Source: Alphaproteobacteria bacterium
Lineage (GTDB): Bacteria > Pseudomonadota > Alphaproteobacteria > UBA9219
Assembly (NCBI GenBank): GCA_028708035.1
Contig: JAQVZU010000003.1
Location: 1-58,639 of the forward strand
DNA length: 58,639 nucleotides
Direction: 5' to 3'
The first letter of the stretch is position 1. Each line of letters begins with the position of its first letter. Shown here piece after piece: positions 20,361 to 27,744 of the stretch. The position numbers and the translations under genes were made by a program. Below the pieces are notes generated by a model. The model searched no databases and was not told the DNA's origin. It saw only the letters and a list, made by a program, of their open reading frames with translations.

Positions 20361-20454
20361 GGAGACGTGGCCGAGTGGCTGAAGGCGGCGGTTTGCTAAA
20401 CCGCTATACGGGTGAAAACCTGTATCGAGGGTTCGAATCCCTCCGTCTCCGCCA
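20361..20454 (+). tRNA. tRNA-Ser(GCT), CCA encoded
   Basis: GGAGACG...CGTCTCC acceptor stem, GCGGT-TTGCTAA-ACCGC anticodon arm, long variable arm, GTTCGAATC T-loop, GCCA end. Confidence 0.98.
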
Positions 20455-21974: not shown

Positions 21975-22800
21975 TAGACCGACGCCCATCCAACACTATT
22001 GGCCCATCTCAATCAATTTGAAAGGATTTAATGATTCGCTCTTGTCGTAGAGTTAACGATGGAGGAAAGCATGACAATCAAAGTTCCGACAGTAAAGAAG
22101 TATATCGTCAGACTGAGCAAGGAGGAACGAAAAGAGCTTAACGAGCTCATACGGAAAGGGAAAAGTCAGGCGAAACAGCAATTGAAAGCGCGCATTTTGT
22201 TGAAAGCCGATGTGTCGAAGCAGGGCGAGGGCTGGAGCGACAGCAAAATTATTAAAGCCCTTAACACCAGCGCATCGATGGTCTATCGGGTGAGACAACA
22301 GCTTGTGGAAGAAGGTATTGAAGCAGTTCTCAGCCGAAAGCAACGCGCAACACCGGCCATTCCGCAGATTTTTGACGGCGAGAAAGAAGCTCGTTTGATA
22401 CAACTGGCCTGTTCTGAAGCACCTGCGGGACAAGCCCGCTGGACGTTGAACTTGCTGGCGAACAAAGTTGTGGCCTTAAAAATCGTCGATACTGCAAGTC
22501 CCAGTACGGTGGGGCGCGTTCTAAAAAAACACGCTCAAGCCCCACCTCAAACAGCAGTGGGTCATCCCGCCGGAGCAAAACAGCGCATTTGTAGCGGCGA
22601 TGGAAGATGTGCTGGCAATTTACATGCGTCCGCACGATCCTGATTGTCCACTGGTTTGTCTCGATGAAGCTACGAAGCAACTCATCAAGGAAACGCGCGT
22701 TCCGATCCCGATGAAGAAGGGCCGGGTCCGACGCGTCGATTATGAATATGAACGCAACGGAACCGCCAATATGTTCATGATGTTCGCACCGCTCGAAGGC
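21975..22800 (+). mobile_element. IS630-family element, 3'-truncated (orfA from 22059; orfB via -1 frameshift)
   Basis: KKYIVRLSKEER..KARILLKAD..LACSEAPAGQARWTL; A7C at 22523-22530; -1 frame gives PLVCLDEA..VDYEYERNGTAN; only the first D of DDE is present. Left end is a guess (TA at 21975). Confidence 0.9.
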
Positions 22801-23030
22801 TGCGGTTTGACGCCGTTTTCTAATCAGCTAAAATTTAGTGACATTCGTTTCTCCAGCACTTGTGTTGCGGTTTGACGCCGTTTTCTAATCAGCTAAAATG
22901 GTGGATCCTTCCTTGGCAATCTTGTATAGTTGCGGTTTGACGCCGTTTTCTAATCAGCTAAAATTGACCTGGACGCGCTTGCTGACCAAGCTTAGTTGCG
23001 GTTTGACGCCGTTTTCTAATCAGCTAAAAT
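22799..23030 (+). CRISPR. type II-C CRISPR array: 4 repeats (36 nt) and 3 spacers (29, 29, 30 nt)
   Basis: GTTGCGGTTTGACGCCGTTTTCTAATCAGCTAAAAT at 22864, 22929 and 22995; variant GCTGCGG.. at 22799. + orientation inferred from tracrRNA complementarity and the downstream terminator. Confidence 0.98.
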
Positions 23031-23037
23031 ACAAATT

Positions 23038-23077
23038 GAATAAGCCCATGGAAACATGGGCTTATTCTTTGTTTTTG
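23038..23077 (+). terminator. terminator between array and cas2
   Basis: GAATAAGCCCATG-GAAA-CATGGGCTTATTC perfect 13-bp stem followed by TTTGTTTTTG. Confidence 0.8.
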
Positions 23078-23101: not shown

Positions 23102-23443
23102 TCATAATAAGACCAGTTGATCAGGATTTTCTGTGGGCGGCTGAGTCGCTCGATTCTGAATGTTGATAATATCAGAGAACTGCTTGTCCGTGAAAAAGAG
23201 GATGCTGATTCGACCACCGGAAGGGGCATTCTTTTTGATCGCCTTCACATAAGTCGAAGCATTGCTTCGTTCTCCGCAAAAACGAAAATACACTGAGAAC
23301 TGCGACATCTCAAACCCTTGGTCCAGCAGAAAATTTCTGAACTTGGTTGCTGTCCTTCGTTCAGCGGCGGTCATAACAGGCAAGTCAAACATCACCATCA
23401 TCCACATCAGGCGTAACCCGCTGTAAGGGACTAGGGGGGACAT
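23102..23443 (-). CDS. cas2: CRISPR-associated endonuclease Cas2
   Basis: MWMMVMFDLPV..TKFRNFLLDQGFEMSQFSVY..ILFFTDKQF; start 23443 (or 23407). Confidence 0.96.
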   Translation of the reverse strand: MSPLVPYSGLRLMWMMVMFDLPVMTAAERRTATKFRNFLLDQGFEMSQFSVYFRFCGERSNASTYVKAIKKNAPSGGRISILFFTDKQFSDIINIQNRATQPPTENPDQLVLL

Positions 23444-23444
23444 T

Positions 23445-24353
23445 TCACGAAGCTTCAAGCCAAAGAGGCAACGCCGGTTGGGGAAACAGCAGGAGATCAG
23501 CCTTTCCCAAATACACAAAGGCAAGACTTGTGGCTGAATCCTGTACCGAATTTGAAAGGGATGTCATTTCGGCTTCCGCTGCAATTTGCATGTCCAAGAT
23601 GCTGGCGAGCTTTCGCTTAACCTCTGTTGAGACCTCAATCTGTTGTTTTTGGACTAGATTCCATACTGTCCAATCGACAAAAGGGCGAAACGGTTCCATT
23701 AAGTCGTCGACCAACCGCATAGGGTTGTTCGAATTTAAATGATGAATGCCAATCGACGGATGAAGTCCGGCCCCCATAATTGCCCGCGCGACACAGGACC
23801 TCAAAACCGTATAGCCGTAATTCAGCATGCCATTGATGCCGCCAGCCTGCCTGTCGCGGCGAAAATCTTTCCCAAAAAGCAAAGGCCAGTATCTTCGCGC
23901 GGCCTGAGCTTCGATATTGTCAGGATCGCCAGAACGAACGGCCTTTTCCAAAGAGCGAACGGGAGTTGGATTCGCTCCTGTCGCCTCTAAGACCACAGCT
24001 TGCTGGGAAATTTTAGATTGTACGATCTGTTTCCATAGTTGTTTGCTTTTGGGCAGCGTTGCGGAAATCTGGGCATCCATGCGGGCCGATTGCTTATAAT
24101 TCCCATCAAGCGACCATAAGTATGCTACAGGCGTGAAGTTTGCGCCACAGACAACAAAAGGGACATTTCGTTGGGCGAGCTGGACAAGCAAGTTATTGCT
24201 GTACGTCAGGCCATGAGCACGGGCAATGACCGCGCCTATGTCATCCAGAGGTACTTTTGTAACCTCTTCTCCTTTTTCGCTTACGCTCATGAACCCGCGA
24301 TTTACGGAAAGATGCTTTCCGTCGGTCGTAATTTCGATGATGCGTGAAAGCAT
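23445..24353 (-). CDS. cas1: type II Cas1
   Basis: DNIEAQAARRYW, LNYGYTVLRS, GIHH, LVDDLMEPFRPFVD. Confidence 0.97.
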   Translation of the reverse strand: MLSRIIEITTDGKHLSVNRGFMSVSEKGEEVTKVPLDDIGAVIARAHGLTYSNNLLVQLAQRNVPFVVCGANFTPVAYLWSLDGNYKQSARMDAQISATLPKSKQLWKQIVQSKISQQAVVLEATGANPTPVRSLEKAVRSGDPDNIEAQAARRYWPLLFGKDFRRDRQAGGINGMLNYGYTVLRSCVARAIMGAGLHPSIGIHHLNSNNPMRLVDDLMEPFRPFVDWTVWNLVQKQQIEVSTEVKRKLASILDMQIAAEAEMTSLSNSVQDSATSLAFVYLGKADLLLFPQPALPLWLEAS

Positions 24354-24354
24354 T

Positions 24355-27300
24355 TCATCTCCTTGAGACGACTCCTAATGGGTCACGAACGCGCCCAATC
24401 ACATCCACAGAAATCTTTCTTAGCTTTGCTTCTTGCATTCCGGAAGGGACTGCACGCCAACTGAGTTTGTCCCCTTCTTCCTTTGCGATGGTATGAGGTC
24501 GAAAGCTGATTCTTCCGCCGGATTCTTTCGCGATTTTCTTCACCCGACAGACAACTGTTTTTCCATCCTTCTCGTAGGCAACCATGTCATCAATTTGGAG
24601 TCGCATAACAAGCTTTGCCGTCGGATTCTCTATTTTCCACTTTGGCTGAAAACCTTTTTGATGTGCGTCAAAATTCGATATGACTTCGCACTGCCATTTC
24701 CCGGCCCGCTTTCCCTTGTTGGGGCAATATATTTCCGCAGAGTAATTACCCCCTGTTGCATAAAATTTGTAAGGATTGTGAGGCTGGCTGTGGGAGGAAA
24801 TGCCTACAAGGGTATCCTTCTGCCGTGCAAAGTGTATGCGAACCCGGCGCGTCCCACTCCGTTCAATGAAAGAAGAAAGAGCTTGTTTCCATTCTTTGCT
24901 CTTTTCTTCGAACCCGTTTACAGCATCCAAAATTTGGTCCCTAATCACGGGGTCGGCAATTTCTCCAATGTTTTTCCGGGTCAGCATATCTTCAACCGCG
25001 ACACGTGTAGCAACTAGAATCTCGTTCTTTCCTTCTCCATCGGCAATGAAGCCAAGAGCTGTTTGGTCAAGCAATGCGGCAACGGTGTAGGGGATAGGGG
25101 CATGAATGGCTTTTTGAGCATCTCCATGGTCAGGTTTGAAAGAAATGATTGTATTTTCCAGTAAGGCCCGGATTTTTTCGCGGAAGCCTGGAAAAGGCGC
25201 ATCAACTTTGTCGATCAGTTTTCTCCGTTTTTCCCAAAGCCCTTCCGTCGTTTCCATGCGGTGAGCTGCTTTCGCCATCTGATTCAGAAGTCCTTGGTCG
25301 GACAGGCCTATCACGAAGGCGTCTATGGCATGATGCCTATGATCTGTGCGGTCTTTCTTGCCGTCTTCGTCACCGAGAAGATCATTAAGTCCGAGTTTAT
25401 CACGCAGCAAAGCGGTCAGTTGTCCCGTGGAGGCCCGCACCTTTTGCTTGCCTTTTTCGTTCTCAAAAACAGCAGCGAGATACTCTTTCGCTAATTTGGA
25501 CATGTAGCGCGTATCGTTAAGCAGACGGGAAATTACGCCATCTTTCCCATCGGCTATCGCCCAAGCGTCTTCTTTGAACCGCCATTGTTTGTTGCTTGGC
25601 AGGTTGTGGGCGCGCGCAAGAATTTCAGGCCAGAATGGTTCGTGTCCAAATGCTTCAAACGGAGAACGGTTTCCCTTTCTCCTGTTCCAGTCAATGTGCG
25701 ACAGAACTTTATTGGCTCGCTTGTCGTTAAAACTGCGCGAGAAGGGCAGGAGGTGTTCCTCCTCAAACTTTCCTGAAAAAATATCTGCGGCTGAAATCTG
25801 GATTCCGCTAAATGGGCAGCACCGCTTTTCTGGCTGCTTCGCCAAATCCTCCCACAGCTTAAACAGCATCCTGTTGCGATACGAGAGAGAAACCCCCAAC
25901 TTTTCTAACTCACCATTAATCCGCTTGTTTTCTCGCGTGTTATCGGCCTGTTGTTTGTTGATTTCATCGACGGGTTCTTTCAATTCTCTGGCAAGTTCGA
26001 TAACGACTTCATCTGGTTTGCCATAGGTTATTATGATCTCGTTCACTAACCGGCGAACCTGGTTTAAAGCAATGTGGACGGATGGGTTATTTATTTTACC
26101 GTAAAACTTTTCGGGATATTGCTTGTCTCCGTCATCGTGAGTTCCACCGATTACACTGCTTTCCAATACTTCCCCATAATAGGGAAGTGCGTCAAAGACT
26201 ACGCCAGTTCGAAAATCGGAGTGATGATAGCCCGCTTTCCTTGCCGCTTCTGCGTATCTGTCCCCAGCTTCCAAAAAAGGAAGCATTTTCATTATAGCCT
26301 TCTTGCTCAACCGTCCATATCCATCAGGAAGTTTGAGATCGGAAATGTTTTCAGCGCATTCTTGGTTAAGGCCATATTCGGCAATCAATTTTTGAACCAA
26401 AACTTGTGAATTCGGTTCCTCAAATAATTCAAAAATAATGGCTTCCTGTTGATCTTGTGTGAAAGAACGCCATCTTTTTCCGAAAGCTTTCTCATCGGAC
26501 AGTAGGTATGAAGTCTCGTCACCGCCTAAATCGGTTCTTTTGTCGGATTCCAGATTGAATTTTACATCTTGGCCTAAGCGCAAAAGGGTTCTGATTTGGC
26601 GAAAGGTTCTTTTTTTATTTGCCATTAAAGCTTGGATTATCTTCTTTCGATCTTCCGGGGTGATATTTCTGTCGGAATCCCCATAATTATCGATTTCGAG
26701 ATTGTTGACCTCCTGAAGAATTCTGAATTTTTGTACTATTGGCAATGCAAGCCTTGCTCTTGGTTCCGAGTTCTCAAAGAGGCATTTCCCGACTTCTTGC
26801 GGCTTGAGGAGTCGCTGGGAAAAAACGATCTCTTTAATTCTTGCACAGACTCTATCAATAAGCTCTGGGTGAAACCGCTTTTGCGAGTTCAATATTTTAT
26901 CTACCTCTGCCTCATACATTTCTCGGCCAGTATAGAAATTATAAGAGGCTTCCTTTCCAACAACGCTTCTCCGCACGCGAACCGGGGCGTATTTGTTTTC
27001 TTTCCTCAACTTCCAAAAATATTCGCCCAACGTGCGGCTCGTTGTTGTCAGTAACTTCGCGTCCAAGTCTTTTATTGCCGTCTTTAACGGGCCAAGGTCA
27101 TTTTCGCGCTTGTCTGCCTTGCGGTTACTTTTAAATCCCCGGCGCTGGTTTATGTGGAAGAGGACTCGACCCAAGTGGTGCAGCGGAATCTCTTTATCCA
27201 AGGCGTCGGCCCGTAGCTCGTAGGGGTCAAGTCCCTCAAGTTGTTTGCGGGCCTTGGGGTCTGAAGGAAACAGGCCTTGCTTCGTTAAGTAATCCAGAAG

Positions 27301-27516
27301 AAGTTCTCTGCGCCACTTGCGTCTATCCAGGTTTCTTCTTGCGCCTCTGGCATTTCTTCTGGATACCGCTAGCGGTTCCTTTGTCTTTCCGTCCCTTCCA
27401 TCTGAAAATATGCGGACGCCCAAAGCCGTAATATCCACCACGGTTTCTTTTTCAATTTTAAGCAGGCACCAACCCAAAGATGTAGAGCCGAGATCGAGCG
27501 AAAGACGAAAGGACAC
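24355..27516 (-). CDS. cas9: type II-C Cas9, ~1053 aa
   Basis: GTG start at 27516 after a GAGGT SD; RuvC-I SLDLGSTSLGW, Arg-rich bridge helix, RuvC-II VIELARE, HNH EEHLLPFSRSFNDKRANKVL..N, RuvC-III HHAIDA; no csn2 or cas4. Confidence 0.98.
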   Translation of the reverse strand: MSFRLSLDLGSTSLGWCLLKIEKETVVDITALGVRIFSDGRDGKTKEPLAVSRRNARGARRNLDRRKWRRELLLDYLTKQGLFPSDPKARKQLEGLDPYELRADALDKEIPLHHLGRVLFHINQRRGFKSNRKADKRENDLGPLKTAIKDLDAKLLTTTSRTLGEYFWKLRKENKYAPVRVRRSVVGKEASYNFYTGREMYEAEVDKILNSQKRFHPELIDRVCARIKEIVFSQRLLKPQEVGKCLFENSEPRARLALPIVQKFRILQEVNNLEIDNYGDSDRNITPEDRKKIIQALMANKKRTFRQIRTLLRLGQDVKFNLESDKRTDLGGDETSYLLSDEKAFGKRWRSFTQDQQEAIIFELFEEPNSQVLVQKLIAEYGLNQECAENISDLKLPDGYGRLSKKAIMKMLPFLEAGDRYAEAARKAGYHHSDFRTGVVFDALPYYGEVLESSVIGGTHDDGDKQYPEKFYGKINNPSVHIALNQVRRLVNEIIITYGKPDEVVIELARELKEPVDEINKQQADNTRENKRINGELEKLGVSLSYRNRMLFKLWEDLAKQPEKRCCPFSGIQISAADIFSGKFEEEHLLPFSRSFNDKRANKVLSHIDWNRRKGNRSPFEAFGHEPFWPEILARAHNLPSNKQWRFKEDAWAIADGKDGVISRLLNDTRYMSKLAKEYLAAVFENEKGKQKVRASTGQLTALLRDKLGLNDLLGDEDGKKDRTDHRHHAIDAFVIGLSDQGLLNQMAKAAHRMETTEGLWEKRRKLIDKVDAPFPGFREKIRALLENTIISFKPDHGDAQKAIHAPIPYTVAALLDQTALGFIADGEGKNEILVATRVAVEDMLTRKNIGEIADPVIRDQILDAVNGFEEKSKEWKQALSSFIERSGTRRVRIHFARQKDTLVGISSHSQPHNPYKFYATGGNYSAEIYCPNKGKRAGKWQCEVISNFDAHQKGFQPKWKIENPTAKLVMRLQIDDMVAYEKDGKTVVCRVKKIAKESGGRISFRPHTIAKEEGDKLSWRAVPSGMQEAKLRKISVDVIGRVRDPLGVVSRR

Positions 27517-27543
27517 ATTACACCTCATCAAGTAGAAGATTAC

Positions 27544-27578
27544 TTGACAAGTGTATGCCAGCAAAAGTAGTGTATCAA
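27544..27578. promoter_or_regulatory. interleaved divergent promoters for tracrRNA (+) and cas9 (-)
   Basis: + strand TTGACA (27544-49)-N18-TAGTGT (27568-73); - strand TTGATA (27573-78)-N17-TACACT (27550-55). Confidence 0.65.
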
Positions 27579-27662
27579 CCGCTGATTAGAAAACGGCGTC
27601 TTTCCGTTAACAAGATGTTGTTCACAAAATGAAACGGCAGGCTCCGGCCTGCCGTTATTTTT
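27579..27662 (+). ncRNA. tracrRNA
   Basis: GCTGATTAGAAAACGGCGTC (27581-27600) is the exact reverse complement of repeat nt 11-30, followed by TTTCCGTTAAC pairing with GTTGCGG, a nexus-like stem and terminator AACGGCAGGC-TCCG-GCCTGCCGTT-ATTTTT. Confidence 0.9.
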
Positions 27663-27744
27663 ATGACGGCATTTTTAATATCACGTCTCTACAAAGAGAA
27701 TTTGCAGCCTTGTGCCAGTGGCTGCGCATTTTGTTCGTGACAAA

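What the first reader, a model, noticed from the sequence alone, without database searches (positions are those of the whole stretch)
22799..23030. Every CRISPR repeat contains a complete sigma70-like promoter
Repeat nt 9-14 are TTGACG and nt 31-36 are TAAAAT, 16 nt apart, each a 5/6 match to consensus (e.g. 22872-22877 and 22894-22899). Neisseria II-C repeats are known to carry an extended -10 only; here both hexamers are present. Each spacer would get its own TSS ~6-7 nt in, yielding ~22-24-nt guides with no 5' processing, and each newly acquired spacer would bring its own promoter.
Basis: partly seen in the sequence, partly recalled or inferred. Interest (0 to 1): 0.68.

Follow-up and report, generated by a model that had tools for sequence, protein, structure and literature searches.

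The report
CRISPR repeats that carry their own promoter
Each repeat of this small type II-C (Cas9) CRISPR array contains a near-consensus bacterial promoter, so every spacer is probably transcribed on its own; this mechanism is already known for Neisseria and Campylobacter, and the only new detail is an added, conserved but untested -35 box.

Summary
Four 36-nt repeats (22799-23030) each contain TTGACG-N16-TAAAAT, with the -10 box at the repeat's 3' end. The locus is a complete type II-C system: cas9-cas1-cas2 on the minus strand, a convergent array, and a tracrRNA upstream of cas9.

Promoters embedded in II-C repeats are established, but as -10 or extended -10 elements only. I found no paper describing a -35 box.

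All 12 sampled repeats in this Cas9 clade (at least 52% identity) keep TTGAC at nt 9-13. They also keep T, A and (11 of 12) T at the informative -10 positions. The flanking positions nt 8 and nt 14 vary, and 11 of 12 lack the TGn extension. The tracrRNA promoters of the same loci also have an invariant TTGAC, and the host genome shows a spacing-dependent intergenic enrichment of this motif.

TTGAC also lies in the crRNA:tracrRNA duplex, and its tracrRNA partner is equally invariant, so Cas9/RNA constraint could explain its conservation. A Cas9 tree showed no trade-off between TTGAC and TGn. No RNA data exist for this metagenome-assembled genome.

Verdict: probably a real repeat promoter of -35/-10 architecture, a modest variant of a known mechanism. 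The -35 contribution is unproven.

The parts
22799..22834 (+). Repeat 1, the cas-distal and oldest 'extra' repeat. It has T>C at nt 2, with -35 at 22807-22812 and -10 at 22829-22834.
22864..22899 (+). Repeat 2, with -35 TTGACG at 22872-22877 and -10 TAAAAT at 22894-22899.
22929..22964 (+). Repeat 3, with -35 at 22937-22942 and -10 at 22959-22964.
22995..23030 (+). Repeat 4, the cas-proximal repeat and the expected site of spacer integration. It has -35 at 23003-23008 and -10 at 23025-23030.
22835..22994 (+). The stretch that holds the three spacers (22835-22863, 22900-22928, 22965-22994; 29, 29 and 30 nt) with repeats 2 and 3 between them. The predicted TSS is about 6-7 nt into each spacer. 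None of the spacers matches elsewhere in the genome.
   Evidence: the TSS position is inferred from Nme and Cje
23038..23077 (+). Intrinsic terminator: a 13-bp hairpin plus the tail TTTGTTTTTG, starting 8 nt after the last repeat. It would stop array transcripts and the last repeat's transcript before they reach cas2. The same arrangement is present in 14 of 14 related loci.
23102..23524 (-). cas2. The Pfam CRISPR_Cas2 match covers residues 40-118 of this ORF, so the true start is probably downstream of the TTG listed.
23445..24353 (-). cas1
24355..27564 (-). cas9 (HNH, RuvC_III, Cas9_a and REC domains). The public gene call is 1053 aa, which implies a start at about 27516.
27544..27663 (+). 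tracrRNA gene. Its parts are: promoter TTGACA (27544-27549), N18, TAGTGT (27568-27573); anti-repeat 27581-27600; UUU loop 27601-27603; CCG and UUAAC lower stem 27604-27611; terminator hairpin 27633-27656 plus a T run.
22059..22798 (+). Truncated IS630-like transposase remnant (HTH domains plus the first third of DDE_3). It abuts repeat 1 and reads in the same direction as the crRNA.

Best explanation
This is the array of a complete type II-C CRISPR-Cas9 locus in an uncultured alphaproteobacterium. Each 36-nt repeat doubles as a sigma70-type promoter.

Its last six bases (TAAAAT) act as the -10 box, and TTGACG at nt 9-14 acts as the -35 box 16 nt upstream. RNA polymerase would start about 6-7 nt into the following spacer and read through the next repeat. 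That repeat pairs with tracrRNA over nt 1-7 and 11-30, and RNase III or Cas9 binding then defines the 3' end. The result is a crRNA with a guide of about 22-24 nt and an unprocessed triphosphate 5' end.

The repeat lacks the TGn extension that lets the Neisseria promoter work without a -35 box, so here the -35 box probably supplies the missing affinity. The last repeat's promoter fires into a terminator that begins 8 nt downstream, which insulates cas2.

Shown here: the sequence elements, the locus anatomy, the strand, the conservation pattern, and the host's use of such promoters. Inferred: promoter activity, TSS position, and the contribution of the -35 box.
For: 1. All four repeats have TTGACG-N16-TAAAAT.

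2. The locus is type II-C: cas9-cas1-cas2, a convergent array, and a tracrRNA whose duplex with the repeat has an energy of -45 kcal/mol.

3. Repeat promoters are experimentally established for II-C systems, and a 3' gnTAnaaT box is general among II-C repeats.

4. In my survey of 57 related repeats, 51 have TAnnnT at nt 31-36.

5. In the 12-member Cas9 clade (52-100% identity), the invariant positions include exactly TTGAC (nt 9-13) and the TA of the -10 box. The last T is kept in 11 of 12. Nt 8, nt 14 and the -10 positions 3-5 vary, which mirrors the information content of sigma70 elements. Eleven of the 12 lack TGn.

6. The tracrRNA promoters of the same loci have an invariant TTGAC at fixed distance and loose -10 boxes, so the -35 box is the dominant element in these hosts.

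7. Across the host genome, TTGACn-N-TAnnnT is enriched in intergenic DNA in a spacing-dependent way: 8.2-fold at N17, 3.5-fold at N18, 2.8-fold at N16, and 1.2-1.8-fold at N15 and N19.

8. TTGAC at this position arose or was lost at least 5 times on the Cas9 tree.

9. Degenerate first repeats of TGn-less TTGAC arrays are altered only at nt 1-7. Some TGn-type arrays keep only an extended -10 remnant.

10. A terminator directly follows the last repeat in 14 of 14 loci.
Against: - There is no transcript evidence at all. Only DNA metagenome runs hold this sequence, and the runs found for relatives were uninformative.
- TTGAC overlaps the crRNA:tracrRNA duplex. T9 and T10 lie in a U.U internal loop, and GAC forms the first 3 bp of the long stem. 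The tracrRNA partner GUC-UUU-CCG-UUAAC is equally invariant. Cas9/RNA recognition could therefore explain the conservation without any promoter role.
- Phylogenetically independent pairs show no anticorrelation between TTGAC and TGn, though there are only 5 pairs.
- Twenty-one of the 57 repeats have neither TTGAC nor TGn yet keep TAnnnT, so a -10 box alone, or 4-of-6 -35 variants, may suffice.
- Two such arrays (L077, L088) have first repeats degenerate well past nt 9.
- The 16-nt spacer is suboptimal in this genome.
Confidence: 0.55

Rival explanations
1. The repeats are promoters of the ordinary II-C kind, in which only the 3' -10 box matters. TTGACG is a by-product: these bases are fixed because they form the U.U internal loop and the first base pairs of the crRNA:tracrRNA stem that this Cas9 clade recognises. 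They only happen to resemble a -35 box.
For: - The tracrRNA partner sequence GUC-UUU-CCG-UUAAC is invariant across the clade although it is not part of any repeat promoter.
- Repeat nt 1-7 are almost as conserved as nt 9-13.
- No TTGAC/TGn compensation is seen on the tree.
- Twenty-one of the 57 repeats have neither element.
- Sister lineages have TGGAC or TTGGCC, one substitution away, so TTGAC is easily reached by drift.
Against: - A TGn-less TAAAAT alone is a poor sigma70 promoter (established knowledge of E. coli-type promoters).
- The hosts' own tracrRNA promoters rely on an invariant TTGAC with weak -10 boxes.
- The invariant block stops exactly at the -35 limits: nt 8 and nt 14 each show three different bases.
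- Other paired positions (nt 14, 17-24) change freely, with compensation or mismatch in the tracrRNA, whereas nt 11-13 never change.
Confidence: 0.3
2. The repeats are not active promoters in this organism. The array is transcribed as one precursor by read-through from upstream, here from the IS630-like transposase remnant on the same strand, and the hexamers are conserved for integration or RNA reasons.
For: - The transposase remnant reads into repeat 1 on the same strand.
- At least one II-C study (Riemerella) reported no promoters in its repeats.
Against: - The upstream flanks of 14 related arrays share no sequence, so no conserved external promoter exists.
- TAnnnT at the repeat's 3' end is almost universal and has been shown functional in two II-C systems.
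- In II-C systems spacers enter at the transcriptionally distal end. That leaves the newest spacers furthest from any external promoter.
Confidence: 0.1
3. The match to a promoter is coincidental and has no biological meaning.
For: Short hexamer matches are common in AT-containing DNA.
Against: - The motif occurs only 42 times in 4.2 Mb of two-strand sequence.
- It is conserved in register in all 12 clade members and in 20 of 57 wider relatives.
Confidence: 0.02

Closest known systems
Repeat-embedded crRNA promoters of Neisseria meningitidis type II-C (Zhang et al. 2013, as summarised in PMC5965381 and PMC12477760)
   Same: Both have a cas9-cas1-cas2 locus and 36-nt repeats of the GTTG... type. 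Both arrays are convergent with the cas genes, and both have a tracrRNA upstream of cas9. The -10 box occupies the last bases of each repeat. The TSS is a few nucleotides into the spacer (nt 6 in Nme), giving guides of about 24 nt without 5' processing.
   Different: The Nme promoter is an extended -10 box (TGnTACAAT) with no -35 box. Here the TGn is absent (AGC precedes TAAAAT), and a 5-of-6 -35 box sits 16 nt upstream. Activity here is untested.
Campylobacter jejuni type II-C repeat promoters (Dugar et al. 2013, PMC3656092; Pearson et al. 2015, PMC4607530)
   Same: The -10 hexamer TAAAAT at the repeat's 3' end is identical. The convergent array and the degenerate first repeat are also shared.
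   Different: The C. jejuni repeat ends in GGTAAAAT, which the authors describe as resembling an extended -10 box, and no -35 box is described. Here a TTGAC box is present and conserved across the clade.
Clostridium cellulolyticum II-C repeats (Fedorova et al. 2020, PMC7038990)
   Same: The array is transcribed opposite to the cas genes, and a promoter-like sequence occupies the last nine bases of the repeat.
   Different: It is again of the extended -10 type. It was inferred from heterologous small-RNA sequencing, and no -35 box was reported.

Membership tests
Type II-C CRISPR-Cas | A cas9, cas1 and cas2 operon with no csn2 or cas4 | tested here: met
   Pfam hits show Cas9 domains, Cas1 and Cas2 in contiguous minus-strand ORFs at 23102-27564. 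There is no further cas ORF between them or next to them.
Type II-C CRISPR-Cas | A tracrRNA with an anti-repeat complementary to the repeat | tested here: met
   A perfect 20-nt anti-repeat lies at 27581-27600, followed by a lower stem, a nexus-like region and a terminator. The duplex energy is -45.3 kcal/mol. The tracrRNA is conserved in 12 relatives.
Type II-C CRISPR-Cas | An array downstream of cas2, transcribed convergently with the cas operon | tested here: met
   The crRNA sense strand, fixed by the anti-repeat, is +. The cas genes are on the minus strand.
Repeat-embedded crRNA promoters (Nme/Cje kind) | A sigma70 -10 box (TAnnnT) at the extreme 3' end of each repeat | tested here: met
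   TAAAAT occupies nt 31-36 in all four copies. TAnnnT is present in 51 of 57 related repeats.
Repeat-embedded crRNA promoters (Nme/Cje kind) | The TGn extension of the -10 box (Nme, C. cellulolyticum) | tested here: not met
   Nt 28-30 are AGC. The scan reports TG_before_second = no. Eleven of 12 clade members also lack it.
Repeat-embedded crRNA promoters (Nme/Cje kind) | Primary (5'-triphosphate) transcript starts inside each spacer | not testable with these tools
   No RNA run holds this sequence. The runs for relatives were uninformative.
Repeat-embedded crRNA promoters (Nme/Cje kind) | A single repeat is enough to drive a reporter, and -10 mutations abolish the activity | not testable with these tools
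   This needs a bench experiment.
Canonical sigma70 -35/-10 promoter | Two hexamers close to TTGACA and TATAAT, separated by 17 +/- 1 bp | tested here: met
   TTGACG (5 of 6), a 16-bp spacer and TAAAAT (5 of 6).
Canonical sigma70 -35/-10 promoter | The host polymerase uses this promoter class | tested here: met
   The motif shows spacing-dependent intergenic enrichment in the host genome. The tracrRNA promoters have an invariant TTGAC across the clade.
Canonical sigma70 -35/-10 promoter | The -35 box contributes to activity | tested here: inconclusive
   Clade-wide invariance of exactly nt 9-13 speaks for a contribution. Against it are the confound with tracrRNA pairing and the absence of TTGAC/TGn compensation on the tree. 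First-repeat decay patterns are suggestive but few.

The most novel reading that the evidence does not exclude
In this alphaproteobacterial Cas9 clade the repeat does three jobs. The same five bases (TTGAC) act in DNA as the -35 box of a full sigma70 promoter. In RNA they form the U.U loop and the stem entry of the guide scaffold that Cas9 recognises. Promoter selection would then have shaped the guide-RNA scaffold, or the scaffold the promoter.

Two further features would complete the design. The oldest repeat can decay to a promoter-only element (nt 8-36) that still fires the first spacer but cannot form an extraneous crRNA. The spare promoter in the newest repeat is insulated by a terminator conserved 8-12 nt downstream, which makes up most of the 'leader'.
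Probability: 0.35. Interest if true: 0.5.

Novelty: new variant of a known kind. Interest (0 to 1): 0.33.

Why it matters
If the -35 box is functional, II-C repeat promoters come in at least two architectures: extended -10, and -35/-10. In the second kind the promoter reaches into the part of the repeat that becomes the guide-RNA scaffold. That would couple transcription signals, tracrRNA pairing and Cas9 recognition in one 36-nt unit. It would also help explain why the 5' half of these repeats is so conserved.

In practice it predicts that arrays from this clade express each guide autonomously in proteobacterial hosts. It also warns that sgRNA or array designs altering nt 9-13 may change expression as well as Cas9 binding.

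The basic principle, one promoter per repeat in II-C systems, has been known since 2013, so the advance is incremental.

Tried and rejected
- **RNA evidence.** The look-up of sequencing runs returned only DNA metagenome runs for the window and no RNA run for relative L074. For relative L082, the metatranscriptome contigs cover only the cas2 side of a different strain. Four further runs held assembled contigs with other spacers. No TSS information was obtainable.
- **Metagenome scan.** I scanned metagenome contigs with the 16-mer CCGTTTYCTAATCAGC, chosen from the repeat middle to avoid biasing towards the hexamers. The scan was wasted because the pattern was too short for that collection.
- **TGn/-35 compensation.** I tested it on a Cas9 tree with independent pairs. 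There were only 5 informative pairs and no trend, so I dropped this as an argument.
- **Repeat hairpin as a terminator.** The repeat has a small hairpin (nt 4-8 with nt 14-18, loop nt 9-13) followed by TTTTCT, which the scan flagged as terminator-like. Its energy is -5.1 kcal/mol against -2.5 +/- 1.7 for shuffles. That is too weak to call, and the region pairs with tracrRNA instead.
- **rRNA promoter as a yardstick.** I looked for one upstream of the 16S gene and found nothing clear.
- **Literature.** The searches and the papers read contain no description of a -35 box in II-C repeats. The original Zhang et al. 2013 text is not held, so I cannot exclude a remark there.

Full report
**What is there**

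The window holds a four-repeat CRISPR array at 22799-23030. The 36-nt repeat is GTTGCGGTTTGACGCCGTTTTCTAATCAGCTAAAAT, and the spacers are 29, 29 and 30 nt.

Immediately to the right, on the minus strand, lie cas2 (23102-23524), cas1 (23445-24353) and a 1053-1069-aa cas9 (24355-27516 or 27564). The cas9 product has HNH, RuvC_III, Cas9_a and REC domains. There is no csn2 or cas4, so the locus is type II-C.

Upstream of cas9, on the + strand, a 20-nt stretch at 27581-27600 is a perfect complement of repeat nt 11-30. It is followed by UUU, CCG, UUAAC, a nexus-like stretch and a strong terminator at 27633-27656. Cofolding gives a crRNA:tracrRNA duplex of -45.3 kcal/mol. In it, repeat nt 1-7 and 11-30 are paired, and nt 8-10 face UUU in a 3x3 internal loop.

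This fixes the crRNA sense as the + strand, convergent with the cas operon, as in Neisseria and Campylobacter. The genome is a 2.09-Mb, 132-contig assembly, 96% complete. Only landfill and wastewater DNA runs hold the sequence. Close Cas9 relatives are labelled Alphaproteobacteria or Rhodospirillaceae.

**The observation**

In the whole genome, TTGACn-N16-TAnnnT occurs 42 times on both strands. A chance occurrence inside an arbitrary 36-mer is therefore of the order of 5e-4.

**What is already known**

Promoters inside type II-C repeats are established:
- N. meningitidis has repeat-embedded promoters, with initiation at the 6th spacer nucleotide; its element is described as an extended -10.
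- C. jejuni repeats end in GGTAAAAT, with the TSS at spacer position 5, confirmed by dRNA-seq, primer extension and 5'-RACE.
- C. cellulolyticum has an extended -10 box.
- Pearson et al. showed that II-C repeats from many classes end in gnTAnaaT. They also showed that the arrays are convergent with the cas genes and that the first repeat tends to be degenerate.
- In II-C systems new spacers enter at the last, cas-proximal repeat.

None of the texts I could read describes a -35 box in a repeat. The original 2013 Molecular Cell paper is not in the library.

**Comparative survey**

I collected 57 related arrays in three ways:
- a scan of genome contigs;
- Cas9 searches across the window's order and class, with the flanks fetched;
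- contigs encoding Cas9 homologues of 47-63% identity.

Repeats were extracted and oriented.

Across all 57 repeats:
- TAnnnT occupies nt 31-36 in 51 of 57.
- Three of the six exceptions read TATAAC, and all three of those have TGn.
- TTGAC occupies nt 9-13 in 20 of 57.
- TGn is present in 21 of 57.
- Five repeats have both, and 21 have neither.

Within the well-supported Cas9 clade that holds the window (12 members, 52-100% identity):
- Every repeat has TTGAC followed by G, A or C.
- The -10 hexamers are TAAAAT, TATAAT, TATTAT, TAAACT, TACAAT and TATAAC.
- The invariant positions are nt 1-4, 7, 9-13, 15, 16, 25, 26, 31 and 32.
- Nt 8 and nt 14, on either side of TTGAC, each show three different bases.

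The pattern of constant and free positions thus matches the information content of both sigma70 elements. Eleven of the 12 lack TGn. The next relative out, Sneathiella chinensis (47% identity), has TTGGCG together with TGcTATAAT.

**Does the host use such promoters?**

Genome-wide, I compared the density of TTGACn-N-TAnnnT in crude intergenic DNA with its density in coding DNA.

| Spacer (nt) | Intergenic/coding density ratio |
|---|---|
| 15 | 1.2 |
| 16 | 2.8 |
| 17 | 8.2 |
| 18 | 3.5 |
| 19 | 1.8 |

The N16 value includes the four repeats and is about 2 without them. This is the profile expected for real -35/-10 promoters with an optimum at 17.

As an internal control I looked at the tracrRNA promoters of the clade. 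A TTGAC(A/G/T/C) box sits at a fixed distance upstream of the anti-repeat in the clade loci where the tracrRNA motif was found; the one exception, L226, has a repeat-like copy carrying TTGACC there instead. It is followed after 17-18 nt by loose -10 boxes such as TAGTGT, TAATGT, TATAGA and TATGTA. The window's own is TTGACA-N18-TAGTGT at 27544-27573.

In these organisms the -35 box is therefore the dependable promoter element. The repeat's pair of hexamers is at least as good as the promoter of the partner RNA.

**The confound**

The same bases also work in RNA. In all clade members the tracrRNA reads ...GGCGUC-UUU-CCG-UUAAC-AAGA..., and this sequence is invariant. T9 and T10 of the -35 box lie in the U.U loop, and G11-A12-C13 open the long stem.

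Because the tracrRNA side is equally fixed, recognition of this module by Cas9 could by itself explain why TTGAC never changes. Other paired positions do change (nt 14, nt 17-24), with compensation or tolerated mismatches. That makes the invariance of nt 11-13 notable, but not decisive.

In other clades the same region is fully paired or has different loops. I therefore cannot separate the two constraints by sequence alone.

**Test of compensation**

If -35 and TGn were alternative ways to reach promoter strength, they should be anticorrelated. On a Cas9 tree, TTGAC needs at least 5 changes and TGn at least 6. Only 5 independent contrasts exist, and they show no trend. Basal members of the window's clade (L063, L228) carry both elements. 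I take this as no support, with low power.

**A natural experiment: the first repeat**

The cas-distal repeat must fire the oldest spacer but need not form a crRNA. A 2025 study argues that it decays to avoid an extraneous crRNA while keeping promoter function.

In arrays of the TTGAC class, degenerate first repeats are changed only at nt 1-7:
- window: nt 2
- L082: nt 1
- L225: nt 1 and 7
- L228: nt 2, 3, 5 and 7

Sneathiella (L229), which is TGn-type with TTGGCG rather than TTGAC, likewise changes only nt 1, 3, 5, 6 and 7. Their upstream flanks are unrelated, so these are independent events.

In TGn-type arrays, by contrast, some first repeats survive only as an extended -10 remnant. L081 keeps nt 24-36. 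L063 keeps roughly nt 15-36, with TGcTATATT but no -35 box.

This fits the idea that what must be kept is the promoter, and that in TGn-less arrays the promoter starts at nt 9. But the numbers are small. Two arrays with neither element (L077, L088) have first repeats altered up to nt 22 and nt 11. Changes at nt 1-7 might also be selected for, to break the Cas9 handle, rather than the rest being protected.

**The end of the array**

In the window a 13-bp hairpin plus TTTGTTTTTG starts 8 nt after the last repeat. The same layout, 5-12 nt and then a GC-rich hairpin and a T run on the crRNA-sense strand, is present in all 14 related loci whose array end I could read.

A start about 7 nt after the last -10 box would produce only this hairpin RNA. 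The arrangement looks like an insulator for transcription leaving the array, including the spare promoter of the newest repeat.

**Context**

Repeat 1 abuts a truncated IS630-like transposase (HTH domains plus the first third of the DDE domain) on the same strand. An independently assembled 1853-nt contig from a landfill run spans the junction. No other copy of this element and no self-targeting spacer is in the assembly.

**Verdict**

The sequence observation is right and far from chance. By homology with tested systems, and given near-universal conservation, the repeats very probably act as promoters; I put this at about 0.85 (0.55 for -35/-10 plus 0.30 for -10 only). That the -35 box contributes is the best single reading, at about 0.55. 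It rests on clade-wide invariance bounded exactly by the hexamer, the lack of TGn, the host's reliance on TTGAC, and the first-repeat pattern. It remains unproven because the same bases are constrained in the guide-RNA duplex.

The finding is a modest architectural variant of a mechanism known since 2013, not a new mechanism.

Noticed in passing
window 23038-23077; L022, L219, L220, L223-L226, L228, L229, L063, L064, L082, L085 just after the last repeat: An intrinsic terminator (GC-rich hairpin plus a T run on the crRNA-sense strand) starts 5-12 nt after the cas-proximal repeat in 14 of 14 loci. The hairpin core AAGCCCCTG...CAGGGGCTT is itself conserved in many of them. The 'leader' of this II-C clade is therefore essentially a terminator. 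It may insulate cas2 from array transcription and from the last repeat's promoter.
   Followed up: partly
first repeats of window (22799), L225, L228, L229, L082, L081, L063, L077, L088: The cas-distal repeat is often degenerate. In TTGAC-type arrays only nt 1-7 are changed. In some TGn-type arrays only an extended -10 remnant survives (L081 keeps nt 24-36). These look like 'promoter-only' repeats that can fire the oldest spacer but cannot form an extraneous crRNA.
   Followed up: partly
window 22059-22798: A truncated IS630-like transposase (HTH_32/HTH_23 plus DDE_3 profile positions 1-46 of 146) ends exactly at repeat 1 and reads in the same direction. Read-through would make an extraneous crRNA whose guide is IS sequence. 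The junction is spanned by an independently assembled contig. No other copy of the IS is in the assembly.
   Followed up: partly
window 27544-27573 and the equivalent regions of 12 related loci: The tracrRNA promoters keep an invariant TTGAC box at fixed distance, while their -10 boxes drift (TAGTGT, TAATGT, TATAGA, and so on). In L226 a degenerate full repeat copy sits directly upstream of the anti-repeat, as if the tracrRNA promoter there were repeat-derived.
   Followed up: partly
L071, L081, L228 repeats: The only three repeats whose -10 box ends in C (TATAAC) all carry the TGn extension. This may be a case of compensation within the -10 region.
   Followed up: no
L220 2317-4339, L228 3162-4340, L219 315-3998, L222 10402-11826: Several close Cas9 loci sit next to tyrosine integrases, toxin-antitoxin genes or phage-like genes (terminase, Phage_CRI, AlpA). 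This suggests that this Cas9 clade travels on integrative elements. In the window, a tRNA gene lies 2.3 kb from the array (20361-20451).
   Followed up: no
L227 4501-7839: A Cas9 homologue (51% identity, seen on 24 or more contigs) has no cas1, cas2 or array within 4.5 kb on either side.
   Followed up: no
window repeats, nt 4-18: A small hairpin (GCGGU/GCCGU, with loop UUGAC equal to the -35 bases) followed by UUUUCU is flagged as terminator-like. Its energy is -5.1 kcal/mol against -2.5 +/- 1.7 for shuffles, which is too weak to interpret.
   Followed up: yes
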